Shown here in pieces: positions 3,627-4,884 of a stretch of DNA of 64,000 nucleotides (position 1 is its first letter; each line of letters opens with the position of its first letter). This stretch comes from the human T2T-CHM13v2.0 reference genome, Homo sapiens. Both the position numbers and the translations under genes were made by a program. The stretch is from assembly GCF_009914755.1 (NCBI RefSeq), contig NC_060939.1. One strand, 5' to 3'. The notes below the pieces were generated by a model that was given only the letters and a program-made list of their open reading frames with translations, was not told the origin of the DNA and did not search any database.

Positions 3627-4331
3627 AGGACTTCTTCACTTTCACTTAGGATAAAAACCAATGTCCAGGCTGCAGCATTAGAGGCACACTCAGGGAGGTC
3701 TGTCTAACGCAAAAATGAGACAGATTAAAAGAGCCCACACTCGAACTCCATCCTTTCATGGAGTTAACAGCAAAAGTGGTACTATTTCCTCCAATACCTC
3801 GCAGCACCCCAGCCAAGACAGCAGGGATCCTGTTCTGAGCAAGAGGTGGACAACGGAGGACTTGATGAGAACACGGGACAGACACACGGAGGGCAGAGAG
3901 CGCACCCACCGGTGGCCGGTCAAGGTGGCCGGGTGTCACCCAGGATGGGCTTGCCTGGCACAGGGCACCCGCCACCTTCCCCCCACGTCATGGTCTGCAA
4001 GGGCCATTTCTAGTATTTATCAATGCCTGTGTCTCAACTCAGGCACCAGATTACATTCGCCTGTTTCCAACCCCGCATGGGTTGAAAAGATTTTCTGTTC
4101 ATGTCTCAGGGCCAGCCCGGGCTCCTCAGTTTATACCCTTGTAGGGACCACGCCCTGTGGAGCGAGCTCAGGCCAGGGACGTACAGCCACCGCCACAGAG
4201 GGCAGGACGAGTCACCGTCTGGGTGCACCAAGGGACGGGGTAGGGGGTGGTCAGGCGGGCGGAAGCATTCTAGACGGTGTTAGTGGTGTTAGGACATGCC
4301 AGGCCGGATGCTGCTCAGCAGTATCTCTTAC

Positions 4332-4485
4332 CACTGAAATTTATCAAGTGAGTGTAGAAGAATGACTCTCGATGAAATTTTTCTATGTCCAATATGGTGG
4401 GCCCCTCAAGGCTACTTCTCAAGGTTTTCTTGGAACCACTTTTGTCTGCAATGAGGGACTCTAGCATGGTTCTCACCATGTAAAG
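4332..4485 (-). CDS. CYFIP1: CYFIP1 canonical exon 16 (16b, 154 nt, aa 559-610)
   Basis: [51 protein letters not shown](E); tccag| and GTG|gtaaga. Confidence 0.97.
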
Positions 4486-4556
4486 CTGGATTATCCAAGG
4501 AAACATTTGTGGGGGAGAAAATATACATGGTACATTAGTTATGCCAAACTCAAAAA

Positions 4557-4710
4557 GCCCATGAGAGAAGGACTGCTCCGCTACGCCCTGGTCGGGAGGG
4601 CCCCGCACCAGCTCCCCGAGGGGTCCGGGTGCCTGTCTACGCGGCCACGTTGCTGCTGCTTTGGGGAAAGAACAACTTGTAGCGGAGCAGTTCGCCTCCG
4701 TGCCATAAAC
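4557..4710 (-). other. Predicted intronic RNA stem-loop between exons 16a and 16b
   Basis: Perfect 13-bp inverted repeat at 4572-4584 and 4679-4691; outer extension GGAGG/CCUUC and GUUUAUGG/UCAUGGGC. Confidence 0.7.
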
Positions 4711-4736
4711 GTCAAGAGAAACAAATGATGTCTTAC

Positions 4737-4884
4737 CACCAAAGGTTAAAAGGGGTAGGTAGGTGCACGACTGCCTCAGAAACGTGTTAACCGCATGCAA
4801 GAGCCTCTCCATGCCCAGAGACTTGAGCTGCCTGAGCAGCTCGGCAGAGCCCAAGGACTCGGCCATGGTGCGCACCAGGTAGAG
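4737..4884 (-). CDS. CYFIP1: Candidate alternative exon 16a (148 nt), tandem paralog of exon 16, probably mutually exclusive
   Basis: [49 protein letters not shown](E) aligns with exon 16; branch point TGACTAAC, long pyrimidine tract, tctag| acceptor, GTG|gtaaga donor; same phases (0/1). Confidence 0.85.

What the first reader, a model, noticed from the sequence alone, without database searches (positions are those of the whole stretch)
4315..4884. The 16a-16b intron is stop-free and in frame: third read-through isoform possible
Seen: ORF 4315-4875 runs unbroken through 16a, the intron and 16b. The combined 553-nt block keeps the 0/1 phase, so using the 16a acceptor with the 16b donor gives an in-frame +133-aa insertion. 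The internal ATG (ACCATGG, strong Kozak) could also start an N-truncated protein [11 protein letters not shown]. From memory, unverified, this is the N-terminus of the annotated short CYFIP1 isoform. Inference: that isoform may really reflect an unsplicable intron between two mutually exclusive exons rather than a separate first exon.
Basis: partly seen in the sequence, partly recalled or inferred. Interest (0 to 1): 0.7.

Follow-up and report, generated by a model that had tools for sequence, protein, structure and literature searches.

The report
CYFIP1 open intron, already annotated
The short intron between two alternative CYFIP1 exons can indeed be read as protein, but that reading already underlies a published short isoform, and the extra peptide drifts between primates like ordinary non-coding DNA.

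Summary
On the minus strand, a stop-to-stop frame runs 4884 to 4315 (189 aa). It crosses exon 16a (4737-4884, 148 nt), a 251-nt spacer intron (4486-4736) and exon 16b (4332-4485, 154 nt). The 553-nt block keeps phase 0 to 1, adding 133 aa. ACCATGG sits at 4866.

It is not new. Starting at that ATG gives 127 + 695 = 822 aa. That is the length of "isoform 4" in Jiang et al. 2008 (PMC2268926), and the supplied RefSeq table already lists exon 4332-5168. The full-length form with the 133-aa insert (1386 aa) is already a predicted NCBI isoform in 14 catarrhine species.

The 84 spacer-encoded residues evolve at the neutral rate. Old World monkeys differ from human at 11-12 of 84 positions; simulation gives 10.2. 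Exons 16a and 16b show 0 differences. A tamarin model leaves the frame and stops, and whale and armadillo models use another frame mid-spacer. Chance openness is about 4-7%.

"Unsplicable" is not supported. Both donors read GTG|GTAAGA, and the 16b branch point lies about 201 nt from the 16a donor. Whether the short transcript starts locally or is retained pre-mRNA cannot be settled with these tools. Verdict: real, ordinary, already known.

The parts
4885..5168 (-). Intron-15 sequence that forms the 5' leader of the annotated alternative first exon 4332-5168. GC is 0.63 and CpG observed/expected 0.55. It holds one upstream ATG at 5056.
   Evidence: Supplied RefSeq table (exon 4332-5168); for composition and the ATG list.
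5054..5056 (-). Upstream ATG (context CCAGCAATGC). It opens an 89-aa out-of-frame ORF that overlaps the main ATG.
4885..4887 (-). In-frame TAG that closes the frame upstream. Its AG is the 16a acceptor.
4737..4884 (-). Exon 16a, 148 nt, phase 0 to 1. It is the alternative, mutually exclusive copy and is homologous to 16b.
   Evidence: Supplied table (exon of other transcripts). for borders and phase; 41% identity to 16b, E 2e-6; found in placental mammals.
4864..4866 (-). ATG in ACCATGG context, the start of the 822-aa short isoform ([11 protein letters not shown]...).
   Evidence: Length arithmetic. PMC2268926 passages.
4486..4736 (-). Spacer intron between 16a and 16b: 251 nt, GT..AG, GC 0.53, 13 CpG. 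It is stop-free in the exon frame and encodes 84 residues with no family match.
4565..4698 (-). Inverted repeat inside the spacer. Arms 4565-4584 and 4679-4698 are 20 nt, 85% complementary and 94 nt apart. They form the main stem of the predicted fold.
   Evidence: I10. MFE -87 kcal/mol, z -2.55, 3 of 200 shuffles fold as well.
4332..4485 (-). Exon 16b, 154 nt, phase 0 to 1. This is the canonical exon, residues 559-609 of the 1253-aa protein.
   Evidence: identical to 3p8c_A residues 559-609. FragX_IP match.
4315..4317 (-). Stop codon ending the frame, 15 nt into the intron after the 16b donor.

Best explanation
The block 4332-4884 (minus strand) is the tandem-duplicated, mutually exclusive exon pair 16a/16b of CYFIP1 with its 251-nt spacer intron. 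In humans and other catarrhines the spacer happens to have no stop codon and a length that keeps the frame.

Exon 16b is the canonical choice. I infer from this that the 16a donor is normally unused. On that reading, any RNA that enters the region without splicing onto the 16a acceptor runs through 16a, the spacer and 16b as one long exon and splices from the 16b donor. Such an RNA could be one that starts in intron 15 at about 5168, or one that still holds intron 15.

The TAG at 4885-4887 closes the frame upstream. The first well-placed ATG (4866, ACCATGG) then gives the 822-aa N-terminally truncated protein, which is already annotated and printed.

The 84 spacer-encoded residues are a passenger. 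They evolve neutrally and carry no recognisable domain. The exon-15-linked +133-aa form is an ordinary in-frame intron-retention product that escapes a premature stop. It is not a conserved third isoform.

Shown: anatomy, frame, length match, neutral divergence, splice-signal geometry. Inferred: that the 16a donor is usually silent, and where the transcripts start.
For: Anatomy and frame.

The pair behaves as mutually exclusive exons:
- The two exons are homologous (22/54 identical, E 2e-6).
- Both are 1 mod 3 in length.
- Including both gives a stop inside 16b, and skipping both gives a stop in exon 17.

Already known:
- The supplied table lists exons 4332-5168 and 4737-4884.
- PMC2268926 passages describe an 822-aa isoform 4 'initiated from' a promoter within an intron.
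- My count is 127 + 695 = 822.
- In one search, 62 proteins had E <= 0.01 among 183 candidates. One search shows models of 1386 aa (1253 + 133) with the identical 184-aa block layout in 14 catarrhine species. A fifteenth, Colobus, has an N-truncated model starting MAESL.

Neutral peptide:
- One search compared 13 catarrhine rows of 184 aa.
- Spacer differences from human: chimp 1, gorilla 4, orang 4, gibbons 3-4, Old World monkeys 11-12, each of 84.
- 16a showed 0 of 49 and 16b 0 of 51 differences in every row.
- Simulation gives 10.2 differences at Old World monkey distance (5-95%: 6-15) and 1.9 at chimp distance.
- The simulated chance of gaining no stop by substitution is 0.71 at Old World monkey distance.

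Frame not kept elsewhere:
- The tamarin model P0047 switches to another human frame after ..VDIY and ends at that frame's stop.
- The pilot-whale and armadillo models best match a different human frame in the middle of the spacer.

No family match for the spacer peptide and no PDB relative beyond chance-level nanobody matches with E >= 0.14.
Against: - The frame is open, with no length change, in all 13 compared catarrhine rows. Only two in-frame deletions appeared: M. fascicularis 183 aa and the Colobus model. My rough, uncomputed estimate is that about one to two frame-breaking indels would be expected on the internal catarrhine branches. Their absence is a weak hint of constraint, though RNA-level constraint on the conserved spacer flanks would explain it equally well.
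- Open read-through models also exist in five squirrel-family species, a pilot whale and an armadillo.
- Ascertainment is one-sided. Species whose frame is closed cannot appear in a protein search, and the database is clustered at 90% identity.
- The predicted models may partly be projections of the human 822-aa protein. They show an open frame, not expression.
- The divergence values fed to the simulation are recalled, not computed here.
- The paper reports RT-PCR support only as 'data not shown'.
Confidence: 0.8

Rival explanations
1. The 822-aa 'isoform' is not a transcript with its own start. It is a 5'-incomplete cDNA of partly processed CYFIP1 pre-mRNA that still holds intron 15 and the slowly or never removed 16a-16b spacer.
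For: - The annotated exon simply continues upstream of the 16a acceptor into intron 15, with no distinct exon (supplied table).
- The leader is not a CpG island (GC 0.63, CpG observed/expected 0.55).
- The supplied table lists no RefSeq functional element here.
- An overlapping 89-aa upstream ORF from ATG 5056 would hinder use of the 4866 ATG.
- The isoform-specific RT-PCR mentioned in PMC2268926 (data not shown) could not tell retained pre-mRNA from a local start.
Against: - PMC2268926 attributes the isoform to an internal promoter and cites a similar mouse cDNA.
- RefSeq keeps the exon with a defined 5' end at 5168.
- Nothing in the sequence makes the spacer unsplicable.
- No transcript-end data could be consulted.
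Confidence: 0.35
2. The open spacer is maintained by selection. The cell would need a translatable retained-intron product, either the 1386-aa form with a sequence-independent, flexible 84-aa linker between two copies of the same structural element, or the 822-aa form.
For: - The frame is open, with unchanged length, in all 13 compared catarrhine rows.
- Open models exist in squirrels, a whale and an armadillo despite frame changes in the middle.
- Both flanks of the spacer translate to conserved peptides across placentals.
Against: - Divergence of the peptide is neutral.
- The frame is lost in the tamarin model.
- Five of the non-catarrhine read-through models are flagged LOW QUALITY PROTEIN. 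I could not see where in the gene the flaw lies.
- Conserved flanks are what regulated alternative exons usually show at the RNA level (established knowledge).
- The simulated chance of staying stop-free is already 0.71 at Old World monkey distance.
- The search can only see open frames.
Confidence: 0.07
3. The spacer is constrained as RNA. The 20-nt inverted repeat (4565-4584 / 4679-4698) loops out the GC-rich centre and helps decide between 16a and 16b. On this view the open frame is a by-product of few changes being tolerated.
For: - The inverted repeat is 85% complementary, with a perfect 12-bp core visible.
- The fold z-score is -2.55, with 3 of 200 shuffles folding as well.
- The residues encoded by both arms (..NCSA.. 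and ..AEQS..) recur in lemur, squirrel and manatee models.
Against: - The z-score is modest.
- Old World monkey changes inside the arms (C66G, T69A, V101I) are not clearly compensatory. By my reading one gives a wobble pair and two break end pairs.
- The centre of the spacer diverges neutrally.
- No DNA from other species was available for a covariation test.
Confidence: 0.15

Closest known systems
CYFIP1 short isoform of 822 aa ('isoform 4' of Jiang et al. 2008, PMC2268926). I recall it as RefSeq isoform b, NM_001033028. That accession is recalled, and a paper search for it found nothing.
   Same: Same start (ATG 4866, MAESLGS...), the same read-through of 16a, spacer and 16b, and the same length by my count (127 + 695 = 822). 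Its first exon, 4332-5168, is in the supplied table.
   Different: Nothing.
Predicted NCBI isoforms X1/X2 of CYFIP1 in non-human primates (1386 aa)
   Different: These are predicted models in other species. No exon 4332-4884 appears among the human transcripts in the supplied table. A model is not evidence of expression.
Sterically enforced mutually exclusive exons (alpha-tropomyosin exons 2/3; recalled textbook case)
   Same: Two adjacent homologous exons of which only one enters the mRNA.
   Different: There the branch point lies too close to the upstream donor. Here the gap is about 201 nt, so that mechanism does not apply. Here the frame enforces exclusivity, because including both exons or neither gives a premature stop.
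In-frame retained introns ('exitron'-like events; recalled concept)
   Same: A stop-free stretch whose retention keeps the frame and adds residues, so the RNA would escape nonsense-mediated decay.
   Different: Exitrons lie inside a single annotated coding exon and have a length divisible by three. Here the 251-nt intron lies between two alternative exons, and only the whole 553-nt block keeps the phase.

Membership tests
Mutually exclusive exon pair from tandem exon duplication | The two exons are homologous. | tested here: met
   22/54 identical (41%), E 2e-6; shared LY.VRTM start and identical GTG|GTAAGA donor.
Mutually exclusive exon pair from tandem exon duplication | Same entry and exit phase, with the frame broken if both or neither are included. 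| tested here: met
   148 and 154 nt, both phase 0 to 1; including both gives a stop inside 16b, and skipping both gives a stop in exon 17. Either exon alone stays open.
Mutually exclusive exon pair from tandem exon duplication | Each exon is used alone in real transcripts. | tested here: inconclusive
   The supplied table lists 4737-4884 as an exon of other transcripts. 16a-only proteins occur in nine species and a goat entry joins 16a directly to exon 17. No human read data were seen.
Sterically unsplicable spacer intron | Donor-to-branch-point distance too short for a spliceosome (tens of nt; recalled). | tested here: not met
   the only yUnAy in the last 75 nt is CTAAT, with its A 50 nt from 16b. 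The intron is 251 nt, which leaves about 201 nt.
U2/U12 splice-site incompatibility between alternative exons | One of the competing introns carries U12-type signals. | tested here: not met
   both donors read GTAAGA and both acceptors are pyrimidine tract plus AG. I recognised no U12-type donor; the motif is recalled.
Conserved protein-coding sequence | Fewer amino-acid changes than neutral DNA would give, with the frame kept across species. | tested here: not met
   11-12 of 84 differences observed against 10.2 expected at Old World monkey distance; the frame is left in the tamarin model and differs mid-spacer in whale and armadillo.
Alternative first exon with its own promoter | Capped 5' ends cluster at the exon start. 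| not testable with these tools
   Only the annotated end at 5168 and the statement in PMC2268926 are available. Composition is not CpG-island-like.

The most novel reading that the evidence does not exclude
The spacer between 16a and 16b is kept open in catarrhines because a retained-intron CYFIP1 protein is made and used. This would be either the 1386-aa form, where the 84 residues act as a sequence-independent flexible linker letting either copy of the duplicated helical element enter the fold, or the 822-aa form lacking the N-terminal 558 residues (which Jiang et al. 2008 describe as the Rac1/FMRP-interacting part). It would be a young coding segment recruited from an intron.
Probability: 0.05. 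Interest if true: 0.5.

Novelty: already known. Interest (0 to 1): 0.12.

Why it matters
CYFIP1 lies in the 15q11.2 BP1-BP2 interval linked to neurodevelopmental risk, so which protein forms it makes is of practical interest. This check shows that the open intron adds nothing beyond the isoform catalogue already in RefSeq and in print. The extra 84 residues carry no sign of selection. Users of the annotation should treat the 822-aa and 1386-aa forms as intron-retention products of unproven function. The one open point is a routine transcript-end question: does the short RNA have its own start?

Tried and rejected
- AlphaFold2 on the 184-aa block as a single sequence gave mean pLDDT 40.3. It shows helices over 16a and 16b but nothing confident anywhere, so it is uninformative on whether the spacer peptide is disordered.
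- Rfam on 4000-5700 gave only two sub-threshold matches outside the block, with E 0.19 and 0.6.
- Pfam matched FragX_IP to 16b only. It found nothing for 16a as a second stretch and nothing for the spacer peptide.
- The PDB sequence search gave chance-level nanobody matches (E >= 0.14) for the spacer peptide.
- Paper searches produced nothing on this exon pair or on the origin of the short isoform beyond PMC2268926:
  - CYFIP1 + 'mutually exclusive': 71 papers, 20 listed, all about eIF4E/WAVE complexes or unrelated topics.
  - CYFIP1 + MXE: 3 papers.
  - CYFIP1 + 'intron retention': 15 papers.
  - CYFIP1 + 'alternative promoter': 20 papers.
  - CYFIP1 + 'shorter isoform': 9 papers.
  - CYFIP1 + 'short isoform' / 'long isoform'.
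  - NM_001033028: 0 papers.
- PMC2654914 lists CYFIP1 only in a table of exon-skip peptides.
- I saw only the passages returned by 'find' in PMC2268926. Its Additional file 2 (exon table) was not opened and may give the exact 5' end of the cDNA.
- I considered counting frame-keeping indels as evidence of selection. I rejected it as too weak because of the one-sided sampling and the 90% clustering.

Full report
**What is there**

CYFIP1 runs on the minus strand of the window. One search lists a stop-to-stop frame at 4315..4884 (189 aa). Its upstream limit is the TAG at 4885-4887, whose AG is the acceptor of the alternative exon 4737-4884, here called 16a. Its downstream limit is a TGA 15 nt past the donor of the canonical exon 4332-4485, here called 16b.

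rebuilt the annotated coding exons. 16b starts at codon 559 in phase 0 and ends in phase 1. 16a is 148 nt, the spacer intron is 251 nt and 16b is 154 nt. All borders are AG/GT. The 553-nt block therefore keeps the 0-to-1 phase and is 133 codons longer than 16b alone. ACCATGG lies at 4866. 16b is identical to residues 559-609 of the solved CYFIP1 chain 3p8c_A.

**Is it more than chance?**

The 84 spacer codons are stop-free in 3.6% of mononucleotide shuffles and 5.9% of first-order Markov simulations. The same holds for 5.0% of 28,711 intronic 252-nt windows of this gene and 6.9% of 7,520 GC-matched windows. The other two frames carry 3 and 5 stops. With the 1-in-3 chance of a frame-keeping length, the joint probability is roughly 1-2%. 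That is unusual for one intron but unremarkable for a feature picked out after reading a 64-kb window.

**It is a mutually exclusive exon pair**

16a and 16b are homologous: 22/54 identical, E 2e-6. They share the LY.VRTM start and the donor GTG|GTAAGA. Including both exons gives a stop inside 16b. Skipping both gives a stop in exon 17. Either exon alone, or the whole read-through block, stays open.

16a occurs in proteins from all four placental superorders. It was not seen outside placentals, except in one unnamed 691-aa record with a more divergent copy (66 proteins with E <= 0.01 among 69 candidates). The search depends on shared words, so absence elsewhere is weak evidence.

**Already known**

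The supplied RefSeq table lists exon 4332-5168 among other transcripts. That exon is 284 nt of intron 15 followed by 16a, the spacer and 16b, read as one first exon. Starting at ATG 4866, the frame gives 127 residues before 16b plus 695 residues from codon 559 to 1253, which is 822 aa.

Passages of Jiang et al. 2008 (PMC2268926) describe a CYFIP1 'isoform 4' of 822 aa. They call it 'initiated from' a promoter within an intron, which their numbering makes intron 17. [quoted passage not shown] Two UniRef entries (Colobus 758 aa, Propithecus 806 aa) also begin MAESL.

One search returned 62 proteins with E <= 0.01 among 183 candidates. One search shows models of 1386 aa (1253 + 133), or of 1385, 1391, 1392 or 1420 aa with other N-terminal variation. 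All carry the same 184-aa (183 aa in M. fascicularis) block between ...PSSTQ and ETLQQ... They come from chimpanzee, gorilla, orangutan, three gibbons, four macaques, baboon, green monkey and two colobines.

Comparable models exist for:
- five squirrel-family species (189-aa block);
- a pilot whale (176 aa);
- an armadillo (192 aa).

Models flagged LOW QUALITY PROTEIN exist for a lemur, a manatee, two bats and a shrew. No human exon 4332-4884 is in the supplied table. These models show that the frame is open in those genomes. They may lean on projection of the human 822-aa protein and do not show expression.

**Is the spacer coding sequence under selection? No.**

One search compared 13 catarrhine rows of equal length with human.

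| Species group | Spacer differences (of 84) | Simulated neutral mean | 5-95% range |
|---|---|---|---|
| Chimpanzee | 1 | 1.9 | 0-4 |
| Gorilla | 4 | 2.7 | 0-6 |
| Orangutan | 4 | 5.5 | 2-9 |
| Gibbons | 3-4 | 7.2 | 3-12 |
| Old World monkeys | 11-12 | 10.2 | 6-15 |

In every row, 16a showed 0 of 49 differences and 16b 0 of 51.

The simulation used transition bias, faster CpG change, and divergences that I recalled rather than computed. The peptide therefore changes as fast as unconstrained DNA while the flanking exons are frozen. The same simulation gives a 0.71 chance of no new stop at Old World monkey distance. Only 24 of 756 possible single substitutions create a stop.

Outside catarrhines the frame itself is not kept:
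- The tamarin model P0047 follows the human frame to ..VDIY. It then matches another human frame (score 74) and ends at that frame's stop.
- The pilot-whale model matches a different human frame mid-spacer (score 57) and returns to the human exon frame only for its last 25 residues, which account for the score of 116 in that frame.
- The armadillo model shows the same pattern more weakly (score 34 over the 5' half, against 93 for the exon frame over the 3' part).

Only the two ends of the spacer translate to conserved peptides across placentals (GKTSFV... and ...[15 protein letters not shown]). These are the donor-proximal region and the branch point and pyrimidine tract of 16b, as expected for a regulated alternative exon. 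The spacer peptide has no Pfam match. The single-sequence AlphaFold model was uninformative, with pLDDT 40.

**Caveats against my reading**

A protein search can only find species whose frame is open, and the database is clustered at 90% identity. Species with a closed frame are therefore invisible, and absences mean little.

All major catarrhine clades nonetheless share an unchanged spacer length. Only two in-frame deletions were seen, in M. fascicularis and in the Colobus model. By my rough, uncomputed estimate this is mildly fewer frame-breaking indels than neutral DNA would give. RNA-level constraint on about 100 nt of conserved flanks would explain that equally well.

**'Unsplicable'?**

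Nothing in the sequence says so. The 16a donor is GTG|GTAAGA, identical to the 16b donor. The only yUnAy in the last 75 nt before 16b is CTAAT, with its A 50 nt from the exon. That leaves about 201 nt between donor and branch point, far above the short distances that block splicing sterically in the recalled tropomyosin case. Both introns carry U2-type signals.

Joining 16a to 16b would give a premature stop. Such products would be expected to be degraded and go unannotated. A simpler account of the long first exon is that the 16a donor is not recognised in most cells, because 16b is the canonical choice. RNA that does not splice onto the 16a acceptor then reads on to the 16b donor. This step is inference.

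**Local start or retained pre-mRNA?**

This cannot be decided here. Evidence for a local start:
- the annotated 5' end at 5168;
- the statement in the paper;
- the similar mouse cDNA.

Evidence against:
- the leader is not CpG-island-like (GC 0.63, CpG observed/expected 0.55);
- the supplied table lists no functional element here;
- an upstream ATG at 5056 opens an 89-aa ORF overlapping the main ATG;
- RT-PCR cannot separate the two origins.

**Side observation on RNA structure**

The spacer folds at -87 kcal/mol, with z -2.55 and 3 of 200 shuffles folding as well. The fold is built around an inverted repeat at 4565-4584 / 4679-4698, which is 20 nt and 85% complementary. Whether it matters for exon choice is untested.

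**Verdict**

The feature is the known intron-retaining first exon of a published and annotated short CYFIP1 isoform. The +133-aa form is an already modelled retention product. The intron-encoded peptide evolves neutrally. Interest is low and the novelty class is 'already known'.

Noticed in passing
window 4737-4884 (-), exon 16a; proteins: Exon 16a is nearly invariant across non-anthropoid placentals (16 proteins share one 48-aa string). All catarrhines and the tamarin share five derived residues (S12G, V31A, A34T, Y40C, P43L). After that burst it is frozen again: 0 of 49 differences among 13 catarrhine rows. This looks like a burst of change on the anthropoid stem in an otherwise constrained alternative exon.
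   Followed up: partly
window 4565-4584 and 4679-4698 (-): A 20-nt inverted repeat (85% complementary, perfect 12-bp core) lies inside the 16a-16b spacer. The spacer folds with z -2.55. It could bring the 16a donor close to the 16b branch point or take part in exon choice.
   Followed up: partly
window 4591-4593 (-), codon 98 of the block: The window reads Asp here. All 13 other catarrhine rows read Gly (D98G in every comparison). This is a change on the human lineage or a variant of this assembly.
   Followed up: no
window 5054-5056 (-): The only ATG in the 302-nt leader of the short transcript opens an 89-aa out-of-frame ORF that runs past the main ATG at 4866. This would dampen translation of the 822-aa ORF.
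   Followed up: partly
window 3013-3594: Inverted repeats of Alu-like sequence lie in the intron downstream of 16b (for example arms 3013-3129 / 3478-3594: 117 nt, 79% complementary). Such pairs are common and can promote back-splicing or exon skipping.
   Followed up: no
P0066 (goat, 1252 aa) and P0067 (unnamed record, 691 aa): The goat entry joins a 16a-type exon directly to exon 17, so the 16a donor can be used. The unnamed 691-aa record starts MVRTMAES... within a more divergent 16a and also joins it to exon 17. That is a short form without spacer retention.
   Followed up: partly
P0051, P0052, P0055, P0057, P0048: Several genome-annotation models (hamster, vole, two bats, fin whale) include both 16a and 16b by inventing splice sites inside the spacer. 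These are probably gene-predictor artefacts caused by the duplicated exon.
   Followed up: no
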